DNA from: Corynebacterium glutamicum ATCC 13032
GTDB taxonomy: Bacteria; Actinomycetota; Actinomycetes; Mycobacteriales; Mycobacteriaceae
Assembly (NCBI RefSeq): GCF_000011325.1
Contig: NC_003450.3
Span: 1,530,001-1,562,000 of the forward strand
Direction: 5' to 3'
DNA: 32,000 bases
Below, one piece after another: positions 2 to 26,993 of this stretch (within the stretch, counting starts at the first letter, position 1; the number at the start of each line of letters is the position of its first letter). The notes below the pieces were generated by a model. It did no database searches, was not told the origin of the DNA, and worked only from the letters and a program-made list of their open reading frames with translations. Both the position numbers and the translations under genes were made by a program.

Positions 2-223
2 CAGGGCGAGCACATCACCGCGCAGTGGATTTCCAACGAACAATCCTTCATTGATCACATCGCTGACACGGATTACACCGATTTTTATACCTGGATCGGC
101 GCGGAATCCTCCGAAACCCGTGCGGCCAAGAAGCATCTGCAGACCCACGCCGGCATGCCCAAGACGCACATGAACGCGCAAGGTTATTGGAACAAGGGCA
201 GAGCCATGGGTAAAAGCAATTAA
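2..223 (+). CDS. 3' end of a siderophore-interacting (SIP/ViuB-type FAD-binding reductase) protein; the 5' end lies outside the window
   Basis: The frame-2 ORF is open from the window edge to TAA at 221-223. The tail ...WIGAESSETRAAKKHLQTHAGMPKTHMNAQGYWNKGRAMGKSN fits the C-terminal GE..R..R..L....G....GYW..G pattern I associate with SIP reductases. It is absent from the ORF track because it has no in-window start. Confidence 0.55.
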   Translation, partial: QGEHITAQWISNEQSFIDHIADTDYTDFYTWIGAESSETRAAKKHLQTHAGMPKTHMNAQGYWNKGRAMGKSN

Positions 224-246
224 AAGATTTTTGCTTATCGACGCCC
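221..246 (+). repeat. Copy A of the stop-codon-anchored 26-nt repeat TAAAAGATTTTTGCTTATCGACGCCC
   Basis: It is identical over 26/26 nt to the reverse complement of 16281-16306 and shares a 15-nt core (TTTGCTTATCGACGC) with 23979-23993. Its first 3 nt are the stop codon of the CDS ending at 223. Confidence 0.85.
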
Positions 247-274
247 ACCTCCGGCGAATCCCTGGCAGCACGCG

Positions 275-314
275 AAAAACCCCTCACAATCTAAGGTGAC
301 TGTGAGGGGTTTTG
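275..314. terminator. Bidirectional intrinsic terminator between convergent genes (SIP-like + strand, gnd - strand)
   Basis: A 9-bp stem CCCCTCACA (280-288) / TGTGAGGGG (301-309) is flanked by an A-run (275-279) and a T-run (310-313). This gives a U-tract on either strand. Confidence 0.8.
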
Positions 315-4525: not shown

Positions 4526-5407
4526 TTACTCTTCCAGCGAGGTGCCAATCATCGACATCGATGTGGCCCTCGCCTGAGCGGCTGCCTGGCCACGGTGAGT
4601 GATGAGCAGCTCGATTAATTGCTCAGAGACCAACATCAGCGCGGCCCGTGACGTTCGGGTGAGCTCATCTTGGAATGAGGCTGTCATCGGGGGAACGATC
4701 AAGGACACATCAGCGGCCACATCGATGGCGGAATGCGCAAAACATGTCATCGCCATAATGGTTGCCCCACCTGCACGTGCTGCTTCGATGGTCGCAAGCG
4801 TTGCTTTGCTGGCACCTGAACCAGAAATCGCGAAGCAGACAGAACCTTCACCTAATTGACGAGCCACAATCTGCTCCGACATGGAATCAGAATGCACTTC
4901 AGCTGAACGACCCATCGAGTTCAAACGCTGCGAAAAATCCAAACCCAACGGCGCGGACAGCCCATGAGAGGCCACGAGTACCCGGCGCGCAGAATCCAGC
5001 CCCTCAATACAGCGCGTGAGATCATCTTCGGTCAACGCAGAGGCCACCGTGCCCAACGACGCTTGAAAATCAGAGATCCCCGCCTGCAAATGACCAAGCA
5101 ACGAGGAGCTTAACGCTCCTTCAACCATGCTTCTCGACGCGCCCTGCGCCAGTGCCAGTTCCTGCGCCAGGGCGACGCGCAGCTGCGGGAATCCGTCGTA
5201 GCCTAAGGACTGGGCGGTGCGGATGACGGTGGCACGCCCAACCCCCACGCGATCTGCAAGGCCCTGAGCGGTCAGTTCGACGATGCTGGGGGCGTCGACA
5301 AGCATGACTTCGGCGACTTTGCGCTGATTAGGCTGCAGCGATGGCGCAAGCGTGGTGATGCGGATGCTTGGTGGAGCGTCAGTTGCTTGGTGCCACGACA
5401 CGGTCAC
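4526..5407 (-). CDS. RpiR/MurR-family transcriptional regulator (N-terminal HTH_6 + SIS sugar-phosphate-binding domain)
   Basis: The HTH region is LQPNQRKVAEVMLVDAPSIVELTAQGLADRVGVGRATVIRTAQSLGYDGFPQLRVALAQ. A SIS-like block follows (VLVASHGLSAPL ... CFAISGSGASKAT). The GTG start overlaps the 3' end of the upstream permease gene by 29 nt. Confidence 0.8.
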   Translation of the reverse strand: MTVSWHQATDAPPSIRITTLAPSLQPNQRKVAEVMLVDAPSIVELTAQGLADRVGVGRATVIRTAQSLGYDGFPQLRVALAQELALAQGASRSMVEGALSSSLLGHLQAGISDFQASLGTVASALTEDDLTRCIEGLDSARRVLVASHGLSAPLGLDFSQRLNSMGRSAEVHSDSMSEQIVARQLGEGSVCFAISGSGASKATLATIEAARAGGATIMAMTCFAHSAIDVAADVSLIVPPMTASFQDELTRTSRAALMLVSEQLIELLITHRGQAAAQARATSMSMIGTSLEE

Positions 5408-9755: not shown

Positions 9756-9803
9756 AAAAGCGCGCCGGGCCATCTCCTAATTGACAGAGATGGCCCGGCG
9801 CGC
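9756..9803 (-). terminator. Intrinsic terminator downstream of thiED
   Basis: A perfect 17-bp stem GCGCGCCGGGCCATCTC (9760-9776) / GAGATGGCCCGGCGCGC (9787-9803) is followed on the minus strand by TTTTG. Confidence 0.85.
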
Positions 9804-12115: not shown

Positions 12116-12922
12116 TCAGGCCTCTCGCACATCAACCAACGAGGCCACAGCCTGGGCATCCACGTCATAAAGCGCATCAATAAACGCCACCGCAAAGCTG
12201 CCTGGCGCCGATGCCTTCTGTGCTGCAATCTGGCCAGCAGCACCCACATGGGCATGCGCAGCCAACACAGCATCGTGCGCGGAAATATCTGAGTCAACCG
12301 TGGCGCCTAGATATGCAGCTGTCAGCGCGCCCAAAGAGCATCCAGTGCCAATCACCAGCTGCAACATCGGATCCCCCGAACGCAACCACGTCACCCGATC
12401 CGCAGACACAATCAAGTCCTCCGCACCAGAGACAGCCACGACGCCACCAGTGCGCTTGGCCAACAATTGCGCCGCCTCCAACGCCACTTCCACGGAATCG
12501 GTCGCGTCTACGCCGCGCCCACCGGCACCGAGCCCCGCAAGCGCCACGACCTCTGAGGCGTTTCCACGAATTGCGGCAGGCTGCTTATCGACGATTCCCT
12601 CCGCATACTTGGTCCTCTCCGACAACCCACCCACAGCAACTGGGTCTAACACCCATGGTGTGCCAGCTTTTCGTGCACCCTCAATGGCCTTGGTCATGCC
12701 TTGGTATTGCTCCGCAGAAGGAGTTCCCGCATTGATGAGCACTCCATTGGCCACAGCGGCGAATTCTGCCGATTCAGCTGGAGTATCCACCATCGCAGGG
12801 GTCGCACCCGCGGCAAGCAACACATTGGCCGTGAATTGCATGACCACAGAGTTGGTCAAACACTGAACAAGGGGAGTGTTTTGTCGAACAAGAGTTAAAG
12901 AATCCAAAAACGAGTTAGCCAC
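12116..12922 (-). CDS. thiM: Hydroxyethylthiazole kinase
   Basis: 268 aa with a GTG start. The ThiM pattern is [28 protein letters not shown] ... [15 protein letters not shown]. Confidence 0.92.
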
Positions 12923-12929
12923 GTTAAGG

Positions 12930-13020
12930 CCATCCCTTCGCTAGTACGAGCTAGAGCAGGTTCAACGGGTGTTTTCTCAGCCTCCGGAATTTTTCCATCC
13001 GGTTGGCACCCCGTGCCTAG
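12930..13020 (-). promoter_or_regulatory. TPP (THI-box) riboswitch in the thiM-thiED leader
   Basis: The minus strand reads CTAGGCACGGGGTGCCAACCGGATGGAAAAATTCCGGAGGCTGAGAAAACACCCGTTGAACCTGCTCTAGCTCGTACTAGCGAAGGGATGG. It contains the conserved GGGGUGC, CUGAGA, ACCC..AACCUG and GCGAAGGGA elements and ends about 7 nt before the thiM GTG. Confidence 0.9.
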
Positions 13021-13085
13021 TATTCAGCCTAGCAAAGCGGAATTCACCTGCCGTACATCACACGTCCAAGAATGCGGGCAGAATC

Positions 13086-14975: not shown

Positions 14976-16292
14976 ATGGCAGAGGCACGTTTGCGCCATC
15001 TTGAACCCATTGATGTGGAAGAGTGGCCTGGGGTGGCGTCAGTGCCCAACCTAGCGTTTGCTGGTGCACGCGCACGGCAAGCAGAATATCGATTTGCCAA
15101 GGCCTGCAGCAACGCAGGTTTAGTTCTGCTAGGAAATGACCCGGATCTCATTATTGATCATGAGGAATTATTCTCACGTTTGGCCGCATCGGGCTGGCTG
15201 GGGCTCGCTGAGAGCTACATGGCAGGCGAGTGGCGCAGCGAGAGGCTTGCCGACGTCTTGACCGCTTTGTTGGGAACTGGGTTTAAACCCCGCGGCAAAC
15301 TATCTGGATCGTTCACCCTGCCAGGGCAAGCTGTGGATGCCGGAGGCGCACTACCCAATGAACTCATTCGTTTAAGTTCAGGTGATGGCATGAGCGCATT
15401 TGGTGGAGTTTTTGCCTCCGGTGTTCCAACCACTTTACGTACCGCAGTGAAAAGCCATGTGCCGGGAGCTGGTCGCAATAGGGAGCCCGCATCTCACTTT
15501 GTGGATATCACCAAGATCTCGGAGCCTGTGGCCGTGGAGCGTGAAGACCTCGGCGAGGCTCAGCGCCGAGCAGCGTCCTTTTTGCTTGACGGCGCCAAAG
15601 TTAAAGCCGGAAGCCATGTGTTGGAGTTTCCCAGCAGTGGTGGAGCTTTAGCTATTTTGGCTGCTCGACGCCAGGGAACTGTTGACGCTTTAACGGCTGA
15701 TCCCGCGCAAGTTTCAAGCCTGGAGGAGACGTTTGTGCTCGCCGGTGTGGAGGAGGATATTCACATCGAGGTCATTCCCCAGGCGATTCCCTCGCCACGC
15801 GAATGGGGTGGCGCCTACGATTCGATAGTCGCCATGGAGAAGCTAGAAGTGGTGGGCAAGCACGGTTCCAAGCGGTTTATTAAAGCTATCGACAGAATGC
15901 TCACCACCGGCGGCAACGTAGCCATGCAATCCTTGGTAGCTACTGACCAATGGAGTCCTGTGTGTTCTGAAGCGATTTCTTTGCTCAAGGCCTATATTTG
16001 GCCTGCGCTGCATTACCCAACTGTTGATGAAGTTCATCAGCTTGTTGATAGGGATTCTTCTCTGCGCGTGGTGAAGGAAACACACTTTGCGGGCCATTAC
16101 CTAAAAAGCGTGCAGTTGCAACGTGAAGTGTTTGAAGGCCAGATACGCGAAGCGGCGGCAGATGGCTTTGATGCCGTCTACCGCCGCATGTGGGTGTATC
16201 ACTACGCGCTTATTGAAGCCCTGTTACGCCTGGGATGTCTCAATGCAGTGCAATTTGCGTTGACGACAAGAAACAGAAGGGGGCGTCGATAA
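14976..16292 (+). CDS. ufaA: Cyclopropane-fatty-acyl-phospholipid synthase (CFA/mycolic acid methyltransferase) family protein with atypical SAM motif I
   Basis: 438 aa with GGAGG upstream of the ATG. The CFA-synthase-like core is YDSIVAMEKLEVVGKHGSKRFIKAIDRMLTTGGNVAMQSL. Motif I reads VLEFPSSGG instead of VLDxGCGWG. The TAA stop lies inside repeat copy B. Confidence 0.75.
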   Translation: MAEARLRHLEPIDVEEWPGVASVPNLAFAGARARQAEYRFAKACSNAGLVLLGNDPDLIIDHEELFSRLAASGWLGLAESYMAGEWRSERLADVLTALLGTGFKPRGKLSGSFTLPGQAVDAGGALPNELIRLSSGDGMSAFGGVFASGVPTTLRTAVKSHVPGAGRNREPASHFVDITKISEPVAVEREDLGEAQRRAASFLLDGAKVKAGSHVLEFPSSGGALAILAARRQGTVDALTADPAQVSSLEETFVLAGVEEDIHIEVIPQAIPSPREWGGAYDSIVAMEKLEVVGKHGSKRFIKAIDRMLTTGGNVAMQSLVATDQWSPVCSEAISLLKAYIWPALHYPTVDEVHQLVDRDSSLRVVKETHFAGHYLKSVQLQREVFEGQIREAAADGFDAVYRRMWVYHYALIEALLRLGCLNAVQFALTTRNRRGRR

Positions 16293-16306
16293 GCAAAAAT
16301 CTTTTA
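16281..16306 (-). repeat. Copy B of the stop-codon-anchored 26-nt repeat (minus orientation)
   Basis: The reverse complement of 16281-16306 is TAAAAGATTTTTGCTTATCGACGCCC, identical to 221-246. Its leading TAA (16306-16304) is the stop of the MFS gene. The internal TTA (plus-strand TAA, 16290-16292) is the stop of ufaA. Confidence 0.85.
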
Positions 16307-17692
16307 GACCTCTCGGAGGTCGTGGTTTTTGTTTTCCTTCATCGTCAGCACCGCAACAAAGGTAATTGCGGTGACGATGATGAGGTAATAGCCGACGTAC
16401 GCCACTGAAAACTCGGACACCAGCCACGTTGCGATGAACGGTGCAATAGCTGCACCGAGGATCGAGGAGACATTGTAGGCGATTCCGGAGCCCGTGTAGC
16501 GGACGTTGGTGGGGAAGAGCTCCGGCAAAATTGCCGACATGGGTCCAAAGATCAGACCCATGATGCTCATGCCCACGAACAAGAAGATGAACACGGTGGT
16601 CTTGGTGGCGGTCTCTGGATCGAGAAGCAGATTAAACGTCAGACCAAAGCCGAGAAGCAGCACAGAAGCCAAGGTCAGGGTGTTTTTACGACCCCACACA
16701 TCAGCCAACCAGCCTGACACAGGGATCATGATGGCGAAGAACACGATGGTGGCCAGCTGCAACTGCAAGAACTCAAAGTACGGAATAGACAGGCCGTTTC
16801 CGGTGCTGCGATTACCGATGCCATACGACAGAATCCACGTGGTAACCAGGTAGAACAAGGTATAAGTGGACAGCATGATCAAAGTAGCCTGCACAACAGG
16901 GCCAGGGGAAGTCTTGAACAGCTCCTTGAGCGGAGACTTCACCTTCTTGCCCTGATCAACAGCCTGCTTGAACACTGGAGTTTCCTCCAGTGAGAAACGC
17001 ACCCACAGGCCAACTGCGATCATGATCGCCGAAGACAGGAATGGCAGACGCCAACCCCAGGTCATGAACGCGCCGTGAAGATCGCCGTCCTGATGGGCAA
17101 GCACACCGACCAGAATGAGCATGAAACCATTGGCCAAGAAGAAACCAAACGGTGCACCCAGCTGTGGCCACATTGCAGCACGAGCGCGGTGAGTGTTTTC
17201 CGCGTTTTCACCAGCCAGCAACGCAGCGCCAGACCATTCACCGCCAAGGCCCAGGCCCTGGCAGAAACGCATGAGCGCCAACAGCGCCGGTGCAATGATT
17301 CCGACCTGACCATAAGTAGGCAGCAGGCCGATCAAGATGGTGGCAATGCCCATGGTCAGCAGTGAACCGATCAAGGTAGCTTTGCGTCCCACACGGTCAC
17401 CGAAGTGCCCGAAAATGATTGAACCGAGTGGACGAGCAACGAACGCAAGACCAAAGGTGGCAAACGATGCCAACAGGTTCACGGTTGGGTTGTCATTGGC
17501 AGGGAAAAACAGACTTGGGAAAACAACGACAGCTGCCGCAGCGTACGCATAAAAATCGTAGAACTCGATGGTTGTGCCGATGGTGGAGGCTGCTGCAACC
17601 CGACGTTTAGTTTTCTTGTCAATCACTAGGGTTGCCGTCTGCCCACCTGGATCAGAAGGATTCAACTCCGTGGAGTGATCAGTTGTGGTCAC
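16304..17692 (-). CDS. MFS transporter, metabolite:H+ symporter (MHS; ProP/KgtP-like) family
   Basis: 462 aa with a GTG start and 12 predicted helices. MHS-typical blocks are TIEFYDFYAYAAAA and GHFGDRVGRK. Confidence 0.85.
   Translation of the reverse strand: MTTTDHSTELNPSDPGGQTATLVIDKKTKRRVAAASTIGTTIEFYDFYAYAAAAVVVFPSLFFPANDNPTVNLLASFATFGLAFVARPLGSIIFGHFGDRVGRKATLIGSLLTMGIATILIGLLPTYGQVGIIAPALLALMRFCQGLGLGGEWSGAALLAGENAENTHRARAAMWPQLGAPFGFFLANGFMLILVGVLAHQDGDLHGAFMTWGWRLPFLSSAIMIAVGLWVRFSLEETPVFKQAVDQGKKVKSPLKELFKTSPGPVVQATLIMLSTYTLFYLVTTWILSYGIGNRSTGNGLSIPYFEFLQLQLATIVFFAIMIPVSGWLADVWGRKNTLTLASVLLLGFGLTFNLLLDPETATKTTVFIFLFVGMSIMGLIFGPMSAILPELFPTNVRYTGSGIAYNVSSILGAAIAPFIATWLVSEFSVAYVGYYLIIVTAITFVAVLTMKENKNHDLREV
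16307..16335 (+). terminator. Possible short terminator for ufaA, embedded in the 3' end of the convergent MFS gene
   Basis: GACCTC-tcg-GAGGTC (16307-16321) is followed by GTGGTTTTTGTTTT. The stem is short (6 bp), so this is tentative. Confidence 0.35.
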
Positions 17693-18567: not shown

Positions 18568-18724
18568 TTTCGAAGGGGAGTAGTTCCACACAAAGGCGAT
18601 CTGACTCGTTTTTGTTTGAGGTATGTTCGACATACTGGAGCAAGTTCACCTTGCACCCGGCATACCACCTGAACAAGGCCTTAAAAAGGGGCTTTATCGG
18701 TTCAGGCGAGCGAGACCTTCGGCG
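18568..18724 (+). promoter_or_regulatory. yybP-ykoY (Mn2+-sensing) riboswitch
   Basis: The 5' conserved block is CGAAGGGGAGTAG (18571-18583) and the 3' block is GCGAGCGAGACCTTCG (18706-18721). P1 pairs CGAAGG (18571-18576) with CCTTCG (18716-18721). It sits directly upstream of an MntP-family Mn exporter, the classic genomic context. Confidence 0.85.
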
Positions 18725-18752
18725 TTCACACTTCGCCGGGGTCTATTTTTTA
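18714..18752 (+). terminator. Riboswitch expression-platform terminator (competes with P1)
   Basis: GACCTTCGGCG (18714-18724) pairs with CGCCGGGGTC (18734-18743), with one bulge and two G-U pairs, and is followed by TATTTTTT. The 5' arm reuses the P1 3' strand, consistent with an Mn-ON antitermination switch. Confidence 0.75.
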
Positions 18753-18779
18753 TGCCCAGGCACGGCTCATAGGAGAACC

Positions 18780-19352
18780 ATGCCCTTTCTACAAATCTCT
18801 CTGCTTTCCATCGGTGTCGCCGCCGATGCGTTTGCTTGTTCCGTTGTCCGCGGCACCGCCATTCAAGTCAACCTTTTCAAACGCGCACTTGTTCTCGCGG
18901 GCATCTTTGGTGTCTTCCAAGCGGCAATGCCTTTAATCGGCTGGTTCATTGGCCGTTTCTTTGCTGGAATCACCTTCATCGCTGAAATTGATCACTGGAT
19001 CGCTTTTGCACTATTGGGTATTGTCGGCACCAAAATGATCTGGGATGCCTTCCAACCTGAAGATGATGAAACCATTGTCGATGACGGCCGCGTTCAATTT
19101 AGACCAGCAATTATCCTGGGGCTAGCCACCAGCATTGACGCATTAGCCGTAGGCATGGGCCTGGCATTCGTGGAAGTTTCCATCCTCAAAGTGGCACTGT
19201 CCATGGGCAGCATCACCTTCGCACTTTCGCTTGCTGGCGCCTGGATCGGACACCATGGTGGAGGAAAGTTTGGCAAGTGGGCTACGATTCTTGGCGGAAT
19301 AATCTTGATCGGAATCGGCGCAAACATCGTCTACGAACACCTCAGCGCGTAA
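18780..19352 (+). CDS. mntP: MntP-family manganese efflux pump
   Basis: The track ORF (246 aa from 18612) runs through the riboswitch. The ATG at 18780 is preceded by AGGAGA and gives 190 aa starting MPFLQISLLSIGVAADAFACSV, matching the MntP N-terminal ..G.S.DAFA.S motif. A second half-repeat is SIDALAVGM. Confidence 0.88.
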   Translation: MPFLQISLLSIGVAADAFACSVVRGTAIQVNLFKRALVLAGIFGVFQAAMPLIGWFIGRFFAGITFIAEIDHWIAFALLGIVGTKMIWDAFQPEDDETIVDDGRVQFRPAIILGLATSIDALAVGMGLAFVEVSILKVALSMGSITFALSLAGAWIGHHGGGKFGKWATILGGIILIGIGANIVYEHLSA

Positions 19353-22397: not shown

Positions 22398-22426
22398 TAG
22401 GCGCGTCGACAAGCGCCTAAATTTTT
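22398..22426 (+). terminator. Possible terminator downstream of the AlkD-like gene
   Basis: TAGGCGC (22398-22404) pairs with GCGCCTA (22413-22419), followed by AATTTTT. It lies about 160 nt after the stop codon, so the assignment is tentative. Confidence 0.4.
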
Positions 22427-22457: not shown

Positions 22458-23975
22458 GTGTCTTCGACAACTTCGACAACTTCGGCCACCCGACAAGAGC
22501 CGTTGAGCCCGACGGGTGTGCTTGCCTCGTTTAGGTTCGCGTTTAGTAGCCCGCGGAGGTTTCGCACCGAGGTTTTAGCTGGCCTCGTGGTGGCGCTCGC
22601 GCTGATTCCGGAGTCGATTGCGTTTTCCGTATTAGCTGGCGTGGATCCTAAGATGGGTCTTTTTGCGTCGTGCACCATGGCAATGACCATTGCGCTTACA
22701 GGTGGACGCCCTGCGATGATTTCCGCGGCGACAGGCGCTGTGGCGCTGGTGATTGCACCGGTGGTTCGGGATCATGGCGTGGAATATTTCCTGGCCACGG
22801 TAATTTTGGCGGGCATTATTCAGATTGCGTTGTCGTTGCTGGGTGTAGCCAAGCTGATGCGGTTCATTCCGCGTTCCGTTATGCTCGGATTTGTTAATGC
22901 GCTGGCGTGCTTGGTGTTTTTTGCGCAGCTGCCGCACCTGATCGATGTTCCGTGGATGGTGTATCCGCTGTTCGCGCTGGGTATTGGCATCATGCTGTTT
23001 TGGCCGAAGCTGACCTCGGTGATTCCGGCTCCGCTGATTGTTATCGTGGCCTTGACTGCGATCGTGTGGGTTTTCGGAATCAACATTCCAAACGTCTCTG
23101 ACCAGGGCGAACTCCCCTCTTCCCTACCAGAATTCCTCATTCCCAACGTTCCGCTTACTCTTGAGACTCTAAAAATTATTGGGCCGTATGCGCTTGGAAT
23201 GTCGCTTGTTGGGTTGATGGAATCGCTGCTGACCGCCAAGCTGGTCGATGATATTACGGAGGTTCACTCCAATAAATCCCGCGAAGCTGCAGGTCAGGGC
23301 ATCGCAAACATTATCACCGCGTTTTTGGGCGGCATGGGTGGCTGCGCGATGATCGGCCAGACCATGATCAACGTGAAAAACTCAGGAGCCCGCACTCGCC
23401 TATCCACCTTCTTGGCCGGCGGCTTCCTGCTGCTCCTGGTGGTTTTGCTGGGCGATGTCGTGGGCAAAATCCCCATGGCGGCGCTCGTGGCAGTCATGAT
23501 TATCGTCTCCATCGACACCGCCGACTGGCATTCGCTGAACCCGCGCACCCTCAAATTCATGCCGCTGAGTGAAACGATCGTCATGTTTATAACGATCATC
23601 GCGACCCTCGTCACCGGAAACCTGGCGATCGGCGTCATCCTCGGAGTGCTCACCGCCATGGTCATGTTTGCTCGCCGCGTGGCCCACCTCGTGTCTGTGG
23701 AGCGCACCACCGACAACAACATCAGCACCTATACCGTCAAGGGCCAGCTATTTTGGGCGTCCTCGAACGATATGGTGTACTCCTTCGACTACTCCGACGA
23801 GGCCGAGCAGATCATCATCGATCTCACCGCCGCAGAAATCTGGGACGCCTCCACGGTAGCCACGCTGGACAGCATCATCCACAAATACGCCGCGCGCGGC
23901 AAGAGCGTGGAGATCATCGGGCTCGACGGCCCCAGCCGCGATAGGCTTGAGCGCCTATCAGGCAAGCTGGGCTAA
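22458..23975 (+). CDS. SulP-family anion transporter with C-terminal STAS domain
   Basis: 505 aa with the SulP N-terminal pattern LAGLVVALALIPESIAFSVLAGVDPKMGLFAS and many helices. The STAS-like tail is YTVKGQLFWASSNDMV...IIIDLTAAEIWDASTVATLDSII. The stop codon TAA is the first 3 nt of repeat copy C. Confidence 0.88.
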   Translation: MSSTTSTTSATRQEPLSPTGVLASFRFAFSSPRRFRTEVLAGLVVALALIPESIAFSVLAGVDPKMGLFASCTMAMTIALTGGRPAMISAATGAVALVIAPVVRDHGVEYFLATVILAGIIQIALSLLGVAKLMRFIPRSVMLGFVNALACLVFFAQLPHLIDVPWMVYPLFALGIGIMLFWPKLTSVIPAPLIVIVALTAIVWVFGINIPNVSDQGELPSSLPEFLIPNVPLTLETLKIIGPYALGMSLVGLMESLLTAKLVDDITEVHSNKSREAAGQGIANIITAFLGGMGGCAMIGQTMINVKNSGARTRLSTFLAGGFLLLLVVLLGDVVGKIPMAALVAVMIIVSIDTADWHSLNPRTLKFMPLSETIVMFITIIATLVTGNLAIGVILGVLTAMVMFARRVAHLVSVERTTDNNISTYTVKGQLFWASSNDMVYSFDYSDEAEQIIIDLTAAEIWDASTVATLDSIIHKYAARGKSVEIIGLDGPSRDRLERLSGKLG

Positions 23976-23993
23976 AAATTTGCTTATCGACGC
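23973..23993 (+). repeat. Copy C (diverged) of the stop-codon-anchored repeat
   Basis: TAAAAATTTGCTTATCGACGC is 3 nt shorter than copies A/B in the A/T tract and shares the 15-nt core TTTGCTTATCGACGC. Weaker similarity to copy A continues to about 24020. Confidence 0.75.
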
Positions 23994-24066
23994 GCCCCTC
24001 CACCTGCGCAATCCTTAGTTGCAGGGAAATTTCTCACCTTGCCAAAGGAGGCCAGGTGAGATTCCC

Positions 24067-24684
24067 TTAAGCAGGTTCAACAGAAGCTGCGAACTGTCCT
24101 GATCCATCATCAAGCCAGCTAATTACTCCAGATGTGAACTGTTGAGTCCAACCATTTGTTGTTGCTTCTTCAGGCCCAGTTGGGAGACCCACTGCCGCGG
24201 ATAGTCCGCCTTCGCCGATCCAGGTTTCACCGATCATGCCGACCAGTGCTTGTGCACCACCTTCTGCAGAGTTAACAATGTAGCCTTCAGGGAACGTCAC
24301 CAATGACTCACCATTCGGGCCTTCTTCCACGGATTCCGGGGTACTGAATCCTGCAGCATTTGCAGCGGTGACGACGGCAGTTGGGATGCTGATGGTGGAC
24401 CCATCGGCGCTTTCTACTTCAGTGGTGTCTCCTCCAGCAGAGTCAGACCCGGAGTCGGATCCAGAGGTTCCGGAAGGCTCTGTGGTGGATGCGCTGGAAG
24501 TGCCGGTGGCATCGTTAATTGCAGATCCCGCGGCGGAGGTTGCAGAGTTGGCAGCATCTGTTGCGCTATCCACAGCATCTTCTGCGTTTGAGCAAGACGC
24601 AACACCAAGTGACAGTGCGACGGCAGCGGTGCCTGCGAAAATGCGAGTACGCAGTTTCTTGTTTGGAAGAGTGCTCACGTGCAT
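24067..24684 (-). CDS. Secreted lipoprotein with LGFP-type repeat(s)
   Basis: The signal peptide with lipobox is LSLGVASC, followed by a low-complexity S/T/D/G-rich linker. The C-terminal WIGEGGLSAAVGLPTGPEEATTNGWTQQFTSGVISW matches the LGFP repeat pattern, and a degenerate second copy lies upstream. Confidence 0.75.
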   Translation of the reverse strand: MHVSTLPNKKLRTRIFAGTAAVALSLGVASCSNAEDAVDSATDAANSATSAAGSAINDATGTSSASTTEPSGTSGSDSGSDSAGGDTTEVESADGSTISIPTAVVTAANAAGFSTPESVEEGPNGESLVTFPEGYIVNSAEGGAQALVGMIGETWIGEGGLSAAVGLPTGPEEATTNGWTQQFTSGVISWLDDGSGQFAASVEPA

Positions 24685-26375: not shown

Positions 26376-26774
26376 ATGGCAGATCGCGTTCTTCGTGGCA
26401 GCCGCATGGGCGCCGTGAGCTATGAGACGGATAGGGACCACGATCTGGCTCCTCGCCAGCTCGTGAAGTACAAGACCGCAGACGGGGAAATCTATGAGGT
26501 TCCCTTCGCTGATGATGCGGAAATCCCCGAGGAGTGGATGTGCAAGAACGGTAAGCTAGGCATCCTCATGGAAGGTGAGGGAGTCGAGTCCAAGCCGGTC
26601 AAGCCTCCACGTACTCACTGGGATATGTTGCGTGAGCGTCGCTCAATTGAAGAGCTGGATGTGCTGCTGGAAGAGCGCATCGAGGCACTTCGTAAGCGTC
26701 GTCGCAATGCAGCGAAACTGCTGAAGGCTCAGCAAGAGGCTGAAGAAGCAGAAAAGGCAGCTGAAGAGGTTTAA
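26376..26774 (+). CDS. rbpA: RNA polymerase-binding protein RbpA
   Basis: MADRVLRGSRMGAVSYETDRDHDLAPRQ...EVPFADDAEIPEEWMCKNG...KPPRTHWDMLRERRSIEELD is near-collinear with actinobacterial RbpA as I remember it. Confidence 0.93.
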   Translation: MADRVLRGSRMGAVSYETDRDHDLAPRQLVKYKTADGEIYEVPFADDAEIPEEWMCKNGKLGILMEGEGVESKPVKPPRTHWDMLRERRSIEELDVLLEERIEALRKRRRNAAKLLKAQQEAEEAEKAAEEV

Positions 26775-26797
26775 TCTTCCTGCCTAAGTTAGAAAAA

Positions 26798-26825
26798 CTC
26801 GGTGTGATTTTCACACCGAGTTTTT
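26798..26825 (+). terminator. Intrinsic terminator of rbpA
   Basis: CTCGGTGTGA (26798-26807), a ttt loop, TCACACCGAG (26811-26820), then TTTTT. Confidence 0.9.
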
Positions 26826-26940
26826 CTATTTGCACGTGAGGCATTTATTGCTCGTCTAAGACCTCGAAAACCTCTTAGAAGCGCCTCTGCGGAGGTATGA
26901 CTTTTGATGTGTGGAGCCAAAACCTAAGCCCAATCAAACC

Positions 26941-26993
26941 ACACTGCCCACGGACCTCAACAATCGGTTCCGTGGGCAGTGTGCTTTGGTTTC
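26941..26993 (-). terminator. Long hairpin downstream of ppm1 (possible bidirectional terminator)
   Basis: A perfect 14-bp stem ACACTGCCCACGGA (26941-26954) / TCCGTGGGCAGTGT (26969-26982) has moderately U-rich flanks on both strands. It lies 29 nt after the ppm1 stop. Confidence 0.6.

What the first reader, a model, noticed from the sequence alone, without database searches (positions are those of the whole stretch)
221..314. 26-nt element whose first three bases serve as the stop codon of three unrelated genes (copy A, plus overview)
TAAAAGATTTTTGCTTATCGACGCCC at 221-246 recurs 26/26 identical on the minus strand at 16306-16281. A diverged copy with the same 15-nt core TTTGCTTATCGACGC lies at 23973-23993. 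In all three cases the element has the same orientation as an upstream CDS, and its leading TAA is that CDS's stop codon. The three genes are a SIP-like reductase, an MFS transporter and a SulP transporter, and their coding sequences upstream of the TAA share no similarity. A regulator site or a random repeat would not be expected to land in this register three times. Possible explanations are a small insertion element that targets or brings a TAA and redefines gene 3' ends, or a selected stop-codon-context/3'-UTR module. Copies A and C continue with weaker similarity (..CCTCC..GCGAATCC/GCGCAATCC..) into a terminator-like hairpin, so the full unit may be about 90 nt. I cannot name a described repeat family that matches.
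Basis: seen in the sequence. Interest (0 to 1): 0.65.

Follow-up and report, generated by a model that had tools for sequence, protein, structure and literature searches.

The report
Genus-wide repeated word at gene ends
The three look-alike gene tails are copies of an 11-13-base DNA word followed by a C-rich stretch; this word occurs about once per 5-20 kb in most sampled Corynebacterium species, inside genes as well as just after them, and I found no published description of it.

Summary
TAAAAGATTTTTGCTTATCGACGCCC occurs twice and the 15-nt core three times, and each copy starts with the TAA stop of an unrelated gene. Chance expectation is about 0.

The copies are not a local insertion element. 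The window is Corynebacterium glutamicum. The core GCTT(A/G)TCGACG(C)C is a strongly over-represented word in most Corynebacterium species sampled, about one per 5-20 kb, and was absent from the one Mycobacterium locus. It lies in unrelated genes on either strand, always in the frame reading L-I-D or V-D-K, and in intergenic DNA. Synonymous variants are 9-30 times rarer, so the constraint is on nucleotides.

Every class of copy is followed on the same strand by a sharply bounded 30-nt C-rich, G-poor tract. No hairpin is conserved.

Orthologues keep the same stop codons without the word, and the word changes by point substitution. About 20% of copies sit 3-9 nt after a TAA or TAG stop, roughly 30-fold enrichment. 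The internal TTA also supplies the TAA of the convergent cma gene.

Function is unknown. My leading, unproven reading is a transcript-level Rho-entry (rut-like) signal. A DNA-binding site or an uptake-like word remain open. No description was found in the literature available here.

The parts
221..223 (+). TAA stop codon of the SIP-domain ORF; first three bases of copy A
   Evidence: full gene called (L191 11594-12332, PF08021/PF04954)
228..246 (+). Copy A: T-run (228-232) plus core GCTTATCGACG (233-243) plus CCC
243..272 (+). Copy A: C-rich, G-poor tract (C 14, G 8 of 30)
   Evidence: family-wide tract
276..313 (.). Strong hairpin between the convergent SIP-like and gnd genes. It is a separate intrinsic-terminator-like structure and not part of the repeat.
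   Evidence: -38.2 kcal/mol for 221-320, z = -4.8
5293..5303 (-). G-variant core GCTTGTCGACG inside the RpiR-like gene, sense strand, read as L-V-D-A
   Evidence: gene and Pfam (HTH_6, SIS); codon position
12583..12593 (+). Core copy inside thiM (hydroxyethylthiazole kinase), antisense, read as V-D-K on the gene strand; conserved in C. crudilactis
16304..16306 (-). TAA stop codon of the MFS transporter gene; first three bases of copy B
16281..16299 (-). Copy B: T-run plus core (16294-16284) plus CCC
16290..16292 (+). TAA stop codon of the convergent cma (CMAS) gene, formed by the TTA inside copy B; the protein ends ...RNRRGRR*
16255..16284 (-). Copy B: C-rich, G-poor tract (C 11, G 5 of 30), embedded antisense in the last codons of cma
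22404..22414 (-). G-variant core in the intergenic region upstream of sulP. With copy C it forms an inverted pair sharing AAAAATTT..GCTTrTCGACGCGCC. Absent from C. crudilactis.
23973..23975 (+). TAA stop codon of the SulP/STAS transporter gene; first three bases of copy C
23979..23995 (+). Copy C: TTT plus core (23982-23992) plus CGC
23992..24021 (+). Copy C: C-rich, G-poor tract (C 13, G 6 of 30)
24023..24067 (.). Hairpin between the convergent sulP and LGFP-repeat genes; a separate terminator-like structure
   Evidence: -32.5 kcal/mol for 23973-24072, z = -3.4

Best explanation
What it is (shown). The three sites are ordinary members of a family found across the genus Corynebacterium. Each member has a short T-run, the core GCTT(A/G)TCGACG(C)C, and about 30 nt of C-rich, G-poor sequence on the same strand. 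Selection acts on the nucleotide sequence itself. The element is written into unrelated genes in either orientation, in the one codon phase that gives tolerable peptides (L-I-D or V-D-K) and using synonymous positions. It also occurs in intergenic DNA and is strongly enriched right after TAA/TAG stops. The TAA overlap in the window is a by-product. The stops are ancestral, and the A/T- or purine-rich 5' shoulder of the word simply abuts them. On the other strand the word's own TTA serves as the stop of a convergent gene.

How it most likely works (inferred, not shown). The strand asymmetry and the lack of structure suggest it is read as a single strand. My leading hypothesis is that it acts on nascent RNA as an entry site for termination factor Rho (rut-like: C>G, A/C-rich, unstructured), anchored by a sequence-specific partner that recognises the core. 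A copy placed just after a stop codon is uncovered when the ribosome leaves. It would stop read-through into the convergent neighbour, as in copy B, where only 11 nt separate two genes and no hairpin fits. Intragenic sense copies would be latent polarity sites. Antisense copies would curb antisense transcripts.
For: Family membership and nucleotide-level selection:
- A 17-mer scan found most of its 120 hits in about 40 Corynebacterium species or MAGs.
- After masking those hits, CTTATCGACG is the most frequent 10-mer in 668 kb (89 copies). Single-base variants, including the synonymous CTC/CTG forms (10 and 3 copies), are far rarer.
- There are 84 near-matches with 2-3 mismatches in Corynebacterium loci and none in 237 kb of other bacteria.
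- In about 180 kb not ascertained through the motif, with database gene calls, there are 20 independent copies. Pfam-supported hosts include CobN, CorA, Lnt, ThiM, TatC and a CoxM-like protein (my tally).
- In orthologous alignments, 18 of 19 comparisons (about 9 independent sites) show non-ascertained cores fully conserved, against 19% of random 11-mers.

Strand-specific tract:
- (C-G)/30 is +0.26 downstream, 0.02 upstream and 0.00+/-0.15 at random positions. It is the same in intergenic, sense and antisense copies.
- The tract is bounded at +10 to +39.
- In sense copies C at the third codon position reaches 74%.
- All six window copies have positive skew, 0.10-0.23.

Other support:
- The motif region is unstructured, and flank pairing is no better than with shuffled partners.
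- Copies are enriched just after stop codons.
- Rut sites are described as C>G-biased, weakly structured and preferring A and C. Rho terminates most genes in mycobacteria and suppresses antisense transcription (PMC12360218).
Against: - No Rho-dependent terminator is known to need a fixed 11-13-nt sequence.
- The tract is only 30 nt long. Typical rut regions are longer, about 60-80 nt by my recollection; this was not checked here.
- Copies A and C are followed within about 40 nt by strong intrinsic-terminator hairpins, which leaves little for Rho to do there.
- Conserved copies on both strands of genes and the absence of an orientation rule fit a duplex-DNA recognition site equally well.
- With my own crude gene finder, co-directional intergenic copies were more often antisense (19) than sense (8). 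With database gene of 7 intergenic copies were sense.
- The absence of TGA stops and the 3-nt register are explained by the shoulder consensus, not by this mechanism.
- No expression data could be examined.
Confidence: 0.3

Rival explanations
1. Recognition site for a DNA-acting protein, such as a nucleoid-associated protein or a topoisomerase. The core is a specific binding or cleavage site spread over the chromosome. The C-rich tract is the part of the footprint held on one strand. Gene-end copies would help manage supercoiling between convergent genes, as REP elements do for gyrase in E. coli.
For: - The specificity profile of the core is sharp, and both orientations occur with no replication-strand bias: 42 to 41 for non-ascertained copies.
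- Copies occur in coding and non-coding DNA and are spread uniformly along genes.
- One corynephage is poor in copies.
- Mycobacterial topoisomerase I is sequence-specific. It recognises C(G/T)CTT(C/G), needs at least 20 nt and gives a large footprint (PMC6379724). The core's TGCTT(A/G) matches 4-5 of those 6 bases.
Against: - A duplex binder has no obvious reason to sit 3-9 nt after stop codons.
- It also has no obvious reason to require G-poverty on one strand.
- The resemblance to the topoisomerase site is weak enough to be chance.
- The reported topoisomerase footprint extends upstream of the site, not downstream.
- Topoisomerase I would be expected at divergent promoter regions rather than convergent gene ends.
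Confidence: 0.25
2. A self-propagating uptake-signal-like or recombination-signal-like word, analogous to DUS/USS or Chi. A DNA-uptake or recombination machine prefers the word. Copies then accumulate by biased fixation of point mutations wherever the encoded peptide is tolerable and in non-coding DNA near terminators.
For: - Over-representation is more than 100-fold, and copies occur in unrelated genes in one tolerated frame.
- The word is shared across the genus, with lineage differences in density and in A/G variants.
- Sites arise by point substitution from proto-sites: the cma C-terminus reads cgt cgt aca TAA gc in C. pseudotuberculosis and cgt cga TAA gc in C. glutamicum.
- Some copies abut terminator hairpins.
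- There is no replication-strand bias, which matches uptake sequences.
- Copies are scarce in a phage.
Against: - I found no report of natural transformation in Corynebacterium.
- Density, about 1 per 5-20 kb, is 5-20 times lower than I recall for DUS/USS.
- There are no inverted-pair terminators.
- Neither the bounded C-rich tract nor the stop-codon adjacency is predicted by this model.
- For a Chi-like role, the lack of strand skew and the 11-13-nt length are atypical.
Confidence: 0.15
3. A stop-codon-context or 3'-UTR module. The element would be selected at the RNA level specifically to act with translation termination or mRNA 3' ends, for example through a stability factor or a fail-safe against read-through.
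For: - Enrichment directly after stops is about 30-fold.
- Spacing is mostly 3, 6 or 9 nt: 16 in phase 0, 6 in phase 1 and 0 in phase 2.
- The stops are TAA or TAG, never TGA, among the roughly 20 copies 3-9 nt after a real stop (TGA is 19% of predicted stops in these loci).
- Gene-end copies lie between the stop and a terminator hairpin in A, C and several other species.
Against: - About 65-70% of copies are inside genes, on both strands, spread uniformly along them, and conserved there.
- Stop trinucleotides that do not end an ORF of at least 100 codons show a weaker lean to the same phase (21 to 15).
- The phase and the TAG preference follow from the purine-box consensus.
- C. glutamicum copies lack that box.
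Confidence: 0.08
4. A small mobile insertion element (a MITE-like or site-specific cassette boundary) that targets or carries TAA.
For: - Copies A and B are identical over 26 nt, which goes beyond the family core.
- sulP is flanked by an inverted pair of one sub-variant, and the upstream member is missing in C. crudilactis.
Against: - The orthologous MFS, sulP and cma ends show the same stop positions with or without the word, and only substitutions.
- There are no terminal inverted repeats, target duplications or length polymorphism.
- In conserved domains the copies replace ordinary residues rather than add sequence, for example in formate-tetrahydrofolate ligase, an alpha-amylase-like protein and a sigma-factor region 4 (identified by reading the peptides).
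- Apart from the 26-nt A/B identity, conservation does not extend beyond the roughly 50-nt element.
Confidence: 0.03

Closest known systems
DNA uptake sequences (Neisseria DUS, Pasteurellaceae USS)
   Same: A 10-13-nt non-palindromic word, far over-represented and shared by a whole clade. It occurs in both orientations, in unrelated genes in tolerated reading frames, and is enriched in non-coding DNA near terminators. Sites turn over by point mutation.
   Different: Density is 5-20 times lower. There are no inverted-pair terminators. A bounded 30-nt C-rich tract follows every copy. There is strong adjacency to stop codons. I found no report of natural competence or an uptake receptor in Corynebacterium.
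Rho utilisation (rut) sites
   Same: A C>G-skewed, A/C-rich, unstructured tract on the transcribed strand. The positions after stop codons, inside genes and antisense to genes match the known places of Rho action (PMC12360218).
   Different: Rut sites have no fixed consensus and, as I recall, are usually longer. Here an almost invariant 11-13-nt core precedes a tract of only 30 nt. Rho dependence is untested.
REP/BIME extragenic palindromes of enterobacteria
   Same: Abundant short elements that sit just after stop codons between convergent genes, upstream of or as part of terminators.
   Different: REPs are imperfect palindromes that form hairpins and are strictly extragenic. This word is not palindromic, shows no conserved pairing, and most copies are inside genes.
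Mycobacterial interspersed repetitive units (MIRU)
   Same: Repeats in a related group of bacteria whose ends overlap the stop and start codons of neighbouring genes.
   Different: By recollection, MIRUs are 40-100-bp units, often in tandem, confined to intergenic regions of operons. Here there are single 50-nt units with no tandem arrangement and many copies inside genes. Sequence similarity was not tested.
HIP1 (GCGATCGC) of cyanobacteria; Chi and KOPS words
   Same: Clade-specific, over-represented words embedded in coding and non-coding DNA.
   Different: HIP1 is an 8-nt palindrome. Chi and KOPS are 5-8 nt and skewed with replication direction. This word is longer, asymmetric, carries a flanking tract, and shows no skew.
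Mycobacterial topoisomerase I strong site C(G/T)CTT(C/G)
   Same: Sequence-specific recognition on one strand, in a related group of bacteria, needing at least 20 nt of context. TGCTT(A/G) in the core matches 4-5 of the 6 bases.
   Different: The similarity covers only a hexamer. No over-representation of the site is reported. The flank orientation differs. Nothing was tested for Corynebacterium.

Membership tests
MITE / small insertion element | Presence/absence polymorphism as a block at orthologous sites | tested here: not met
   The MFS, sulP and cma ends in 7 species differ by substitutions only, and the stop positions are conserved.
MITE / small insertion element | Terminal inverted repeats and target-site duplication | tested here: not met
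   None are visible in the alignments of copies and flanks. Flank complementarity equals that of shuffled partners.
DNA uptake sequence (DUS/USS) | Clade-wide word, hundreds of copies per genome, far above chance | tested here: met
   It is the most frequent 10-mer in 668 kb. There are 20 copies in about 180 kb of loci not ascertained through the motif, against 0.17 expected. Density is lower than in DUS/USS.
DNA uptake sequence (DUS/USS) | Both orientations, no replication-strand bias, copies in coding DNA in preferred frames | tested here: met
   The replication direction was only approximated from local GC skew.
DNA uptake sequence (DUS/USS) | Inverted pairs forming terminators | tested here: not met
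   Gene-end copies are single, and the adjacent hairpins are unrelated sequences.
DNA uptake sequence (DUS/USS) | Host is naturally competent and takes up DNA carrying the word preferentially | not testable with these tools
   The literature searches found no report for Corynebacterium.
Rho utilisation (rut) site | C>G-skewed, weakly structured RNA stretch | tested here: met
   The tract at +10 to +39 has C 0.48 and G 0.17. The motif region folds no better than shuffles. The tract is only 30 nt.
Rho utilisation (rut) site | Termination downstream depends on Rho | not testable with these tools
   No transcript 3'-end or Rho-depletion data were available.
Intrinsic terminator | GC-rich hairpin followed by a U-run | tested here: not met
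   The motif itself has no hairpin. The hairpins at 276-313 and 24023-24067 are separate, and copy B has none.
REP-like extragenic palindrome | Palindromic and strictly extragenic | tested here: not met
   There is no conserved pairing, and most copies are inside genes.
Chi / KOPS polar words | Strong orientation bias with replication direction | tested here: not met
   Non-ascertained copies split 42 to 41 against local GC skew. My tally of copies in complete genomes gave 6 on the leading and 4 on the lagging strand (coordinates).
Peptide-driven repeat (conserved protein motif) | Synonymous codon variants as common as codon usage predicts; host proteins related | tested here: not met
   CTT-ATC-GAC-G occurs 89 times against 10 for CTC and 3 for CTG. 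The host proteins are unrelated.
Known RNA family (Rfam) | Match to a curated covariance model | tested here: not met
   Only a TPP riboswitch and a sub-threshold S4 leader were found in the window.
Mycobacterial TopoI strong site | Hexamer C(G/T)CTT(C/G) cleaved between the two T residues | tested here: inconclusive
   TGCTT(A/G) matches 4-5 of 6 bases (PMC6379724). Enzyme specificity in Corynebacterium is unknown.

The most novel reading that the evidence does not exclude
Corynebacterium genomes, including C. glutamicum and members of the C. diphtheriae group, carry an undescribed, selection-maintained, strand-asymmetric signal of about 50 nt: a sequence-specific anchor plus a C-rich tract. 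It is written through coding sequences at synonymous sites. It would be read by a dedicated machinery, either a sequence-anchored Rho/termination system or the first uptake- or self-recognition-type word in Actinobacteria.
Probability: 0.45. Interest if true: 0.85.

Novelty: new variant of a known kind. Interest (0 to 1): 0.7.

Why it matters
If confirmed, this would be a rare kind of genome-wide sequence signal: a long, almost invariant word with an attached strand-specific tract, kept by selection even inside protein-coding genes, in a genus that includes a major industrial organism and human pathogens.

It offers a direct handle for pull-down, reporter and Rho-depletion experiments on an unknown sequence-reading machinery in Actinobacteria. 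One candidate is a sequence-anchored way of loading Rho, whose entry sites have resisted definition.

It also matters practically. Recoding or refactoring C. glutamicum genes would destroy or create these sites. The word also constrains local protein sequence (L-I-D-A-P or G-V-D-K-Q) and the positions of some stop codons.

Tried and rejected
- Conserved hairpin formed by the 5' purine box and the 3' GCCCC or C-tract. Stem lengths and duplex energies equal those of partner-shuffled controls. That control cannot exclude pairing between two fixed consensus blocks, but C. glutamicum copies lack the box.
- Sigma-70-type promoter or intrinsic terminator at the motif. No hits. By eye, no -10 element lies at the right spacing on either strand.
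- Small ORF starting at the TTG of TTTTTGCTT (M-L-I-D-A-P...). The peptides of A, B and C share nothing after six residues.
- Protein-motif origin. Refuted by the rarity of synonymous variants and by the unrelated host proteins.
- Local duplication including coding sequence. There is no similarity upstream of the TAA.
- Rfam. No family matched.
- Replication-strand polarity. None found.
- Viral contigs. All 59 hits of the 15-mer look like chance; none has the Corynebacterium-type flanks or a second copy.
- ISCg2 target-site idea, recalled from memory. The papers I could read did not give the target sequence, so it remains unverified.
- Literature string searches for the core on both strands. 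Only unrelated papers turned up, presumably primer sequences.

Limits of the work:
- Gene positions in the 120 scanned loci come from my own crude codon-usage gene finder, which mis-called some genes. Counts that depend on it are approximate.
- The key statements were re-checked on about 180 kb with database gene calls.
Full report
**1. Observation**

The window contains TAAAAGATTTTTGCTTATCGACGCCC at 221-246 (+) and, identical, at 16306-16281 (-). The 15-nt core TTTGCTTATCGACGC recurs exactly at 23979-23993 (+). Shuffled sequence gives no such matches.

In each case the leading TAA is the stop codon of an ORF on the same strand: a SIP-domain protein, an MFS transporter and a SulP/STAS transporter. 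The coding sequences upstream of the TAA are unrelated.

I add four points.
- All three sites lie between convergent genes.
- In copy B the two genes are only 11 nt apart. The stop codon of the convergent cma gene (16290-16292, +) is the TTA inside GCTTATCG read on the other strand.
- The window holds three further copies of the 11-nt core GCTTRTCGACG, two of them inside genes. That is 6 copies against 0.02 expected.
- The hairpins after A and C are real but mutually unrelated, and B has none.

**2. Source**

The window is Corynebacterium glutamicum, about 1.53-1.56 Mb of BX927147.

**3. A genus-wide word, not a local repeat**

Most hits were in about 40 different Corynebacterium species or MAGs, with 10 or more in some, such as C. 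riegelii. The remainder were scattered single hits in other phyla, as expected by chance.

I masked these ascertained copies and counted again. CTTATCGACG is still the most frequent 10-mer in the 668 kb of Corynebacterium sequence fetched, with 89 copies, ahead of all simple GC repeats. Single-base variants are 3- to 100-fold rarer. Positions TCGACG almost never vary, and only the A of GCTTATC is relaxed (G 37, T 23, C 22).

Near matches to the 17-mer with 2-3 mismatches number 84 in Corynebacterium loci and 0 in 237 kb of other bacteria found by the same scan. The 59 viral contigs that contain the 15-mer have no second copy and no family flanks.

Loci reached through the MFS protein, and so not ascertained by the motif, gave these counts of the exact 11-mer per 21 kb:
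- C. pseudotuberculosis: 3
- C. occultum: 2
- C. gallinarum: 2
- C. maris: 1
- C. resistens: 0
- C. bovis: 0
- a Mycobacterium: 0

In 51 kb of C. glutamicum there are 10 copies of GCTT(A/G)TCGACG.

**4. Where the copies lie**

With database gene calls (about 180 kb), my tally gives 20 independent copies:
- 8 are in coding sequence on the sense strand, always with the G as third codon base (xxG CTT ATC GAC Gxx, read L-I-D).
- 5-6 are antisense in the matching phase (GTC GAT AAG, read V-D-K).
- 4 lie 6-9 nt after a same-strand stop.
- 3 lie elsewhere in intergenic DNA.

Host genes with Pfam support include cobN, corA, lnt, thiM, tatC and a coxM-like gene.

The larger but cruder set uses my own codon-usage gene finder. 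It gives the same picture:
- Non-ascertained cores (n=83): 45 sense, 19 antisense, 19 intergenic.
- Full 17-mers (n=93): 25 sense, 26 antisense, 42 intergenic.

Host proteins in that set are unrelated. Reading the peptides, I identified an alpha-amylase-like protein, a sigma-factor region 4, CysN, formate-tetrahydrofolate ligase and ABC ATPases. In these conserved domains the word replaces ordinary residues and does not add sequence.

Because CTC/CTG-ATCGACG are 9-30 times rarer than CTT-ATCGACG, the word is not a consequence of a common peptide. The constraint is on nucleotides. Copies are spread evenly along genes.

**5. Extended anatomy**

Upstream of the core there is a T-run at -1 to -4. 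In many species there is also a purine box RGGRGC at -11 to -6. The C. glutamicum copies instead have AAAGATTTTT or AAAAATTT.

Downstream there is a C-rich, G-poor tract on the same strand.
- It is sharply bounded at +10 to +39, with C 0.48 and G 0.17 against a baseline of 0.31/0.31 on both sides.
- (C-G)/30 is +0.25, +0.24 and +0.30 in intergenic, sense and antisense copies. It is +0.02 upstream and 0.00+/-0.15 at random positions.
- 62% of sites exceed 0.2, against 8% of random positions.
- In sense copies the enrichment sits at third codon positions, up to 74% C. In antisense copies it sits at the complements of first and third positions. It is therefore achieved partly through synonymous choices.
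- All six window copies show it, at 0.10-0.23.
- Frequent tract words are CCACC, CACC and CCTCC.

**6. No conserved structure**

The motif region folds no better than shuffles (z -0.6 and -0.9). Complementarity between the flanks equals that of partner-shuffled controls. Consensus promoter and terminator scans find nothing at the motif. Rfam finds only a TPP riboswitch elsewhere in the window.

**7. Evolution**

The MFS protein ends at the homologous residue, with a stop codon at the same place, in seven species. The word follows it only in the C. glutamicum clade (C. glutamicum, C. crudilactis, C. gallinarum). In C. gallinarum the stop is TAG and the 9-nt spacer is completely different, yet the core is intact.

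The other species have an ordinary spacer after that stop, with a visible hairpin in some.

The cma C-terminus is ...RNRRGRR* (cgt cga TAA gc) where the word is present. In C. pseudotuberculosis it is ...RNRRRRT* (cgt cgt aca TAA gc). This is a proto-site a few changes away, not an insertion.

The orthologue of copy C in C. crudilactis is a decayed version (GCTTTTCGACGAAC) after a TAG at the same position.

Cores are nevertheless conserved. In orthologous alignments about 90% identical, 18 of 19 comparisons (about 9 independent sites, none ascertained through the motif) show the core fully conserved. Only 19% of random 11-mers are.

**8. The stop-codon link**

Of 176 distinct copies, 22 have a same-strand ORF of at least 100 codons ending no more than 15 nt before the core. 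The spacing is a multiple of three in 16, in phase 1 in 6, and in phase 2 in none. Among the roughly 20 copies that sit 3-9 nt after a real stop, the stop is TAG or TAA and never TGA, although TGA makes up 19% of predicted stops in these loci.

With database gene calls, 4 of 20 copies are of this kind. About 0.6% would be expected from the available positions. On the other strand, the internal TTA ends ORFs of at least 100 codons in at least 12 of the roughly 90 17-mer copies, as ...CGT CGA TAA.

The register has a simple cause outside C. glutamicum. The purine box has A/G-G at -11/-10 and -8/-7 and almost never T there. A preceding T therefore makes TAG at spacing 9 or 6, while the third phase is excluded.

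The enrichment itself is not explained by relief from coding constraint alone. It points to a link with the end of translation or transcription, or to proto-sites being commoner there.

**9. Other properties**

- Orientation does not follow replication direction. Non-ascertained copies split 42 to 41 against local GC skew. For copies in complete genomes my tally was 6 leading and 4 lagging.
- Corynephage BFK20 (43 kb, GC 56%) has one core copy, against about one per 5 kb for the A/G variants in its host.
- In C. glutamicum, sulP is flanked by an inverted pair of one sub-variant (AAAAATTT..GCTTrTCGACGCGCC). The upstream member is absent from C. crudilactis. Copies A and B share 26 nt. Some local homogenisation may therefore occur.

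**10. Interpretation**

Shown:
- The three sites belong to a genus-wide, nucleotide-level, strand-asymmetric element of about 50 nt.
- They are not insertions and did not create the stops of the MFS or sulP genes.
- The word's TTA is the present stop of cma.

Inferred:
- The G-poor, C/A-rich, unstructured tract on one strand, realised even at synonymous sites, argues for reading as a single strand.
- These are the features given for Rho entry sites. Rho terminates most mycobacterial genes and silences antisense RNA (PMC12360218).
- A copy immediately after a stop codon is uncovered exactly when the ribosome leaves.
- Copy B sits where no hairpin terminator can fit.

I therefore rank a Rho-entry (rut-like) signal with a sequence-specific anchor first, at about 0.3.

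Against it:
- No rut site with a fixed 11-13-nt core is known.
- The tract is short.
- A and C are followed by strong hairpins.
- Conserved copies on both strands fit a DNA-level reader equally well.

Rivals:
- A DNA-acting protein site, 0.25. The core's TGCTT(A/G) resembles the mycobacterial topoisomerase I site C(G/T)CTT(C/G) (PMC6379724). This is a lead only.
- An uptake- or recombination-type word spread by biased fixation, 0.15.
- A dedicated stop-context or 3'-UTR module, 0.08.
- A mobile insertion element, 0.03.

**11. Comparison with known classes**

The family shares abundance, clade specificity, frame-restricted coding copies and point-mutational turnover with DUS/USS. It lacks their density and inverted pairs, and no competent host is known. 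It has a tract and a stop-codon adjacency that they lack.

It shares tract composition with rut sites but has a fixed core. It shares the gene-end niche with REP elements and MIRUs, but it is not palindromic, not tandem and mostly intragenic. It lacks the polarity of Chi and KOPS.

I therefore do not file it under any of these.

**12. Novelty and caveats**

String searches for the core on both strands, and topic searches, found no description. The library is incomplete, so an earlier description cannot be excluded.

No whole genome could be examined. Part of the statistics rests on a crude gene finder. No expression or binding data were available. The functional assignment is therefore a hypothesis, while the re-identification of the finding is well supported.

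Noticed in passing
window 12916-13023 (-): TPP riboswitch (Rfam RF00059, 56.3 bits) upstream of the thiM/thiD thiamine genes. Ordinary.
   Followed up: no
window 16290-16306: The convergent cma and MFS genes are separated by only 11 nt. Both stop codons fall in or at copy B, and no terminator hairpin fits between them.
   Followed up: yes
window 22404-22414 (-) and 23982-23992 (+): sulP is flanked by an inverted pair of the same sub-variant (AAAAATTT..GCTTrTCGACGCGCC). The upstream copy and its surrounding intergenic sequence are not conserved in C. crudilactis.
   Followed up: partly
window 5126-5140 (+) / 5292-5306 (-); L191 16464-16474 (-) / 16610-16620 (+): Two C. glutamicum genes each carry two variant copies on opposite strands, 140-165 nt apart. 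In L108 two copies lie back to back inside one gene (..VEKQ-MLIDA..). This may be chance, or a sign that paired copies matter.
   Followed up: no
window 26790-26828, 26932-26991, 9760-9803: A perfect 18-nt inverted repeat lies right after the rbpA-like ORF (26376-26774). There is also a 23-nt-arm repeat and a 17-nt GC-rich perfect hairpin. They look like ordinary terminators.
   Followed up: no
L094 and L149 (C. riegelii and Corynebacterium sp. HMSC29G08): A sequence resembling a parS site (TGTTTCACGTGAAAC, recognised from memory) lies about 45 nt downstream of a motif copy.
   Followed up: no
L067, L083, L178: MAG contigs labelled 'uncultured Campylobacter sp.' carry Corynebacterium-type copies with family flanks and high GC. 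They are probably mis-binned Corynebacterium DNA.
   Followed up: no
L193 (corynephage BFK20, AJ278322): There is only one core copy in 43 kb, although GC content is similar to the host's. The host has about one A/G-variant copy per 5 kb.
   Followed up: partly
L188 (C. resistens), L190 (C. bovis): No core copy in 21 kb each.
   Followed up: no
window 18681-18789 (-): Sub-threshold Rfam match to the S4-Clostridia ribosomal leader (24.8 bits against a gathering score of 37.5, E = 0.064). Probably chance.
   Followed up: no
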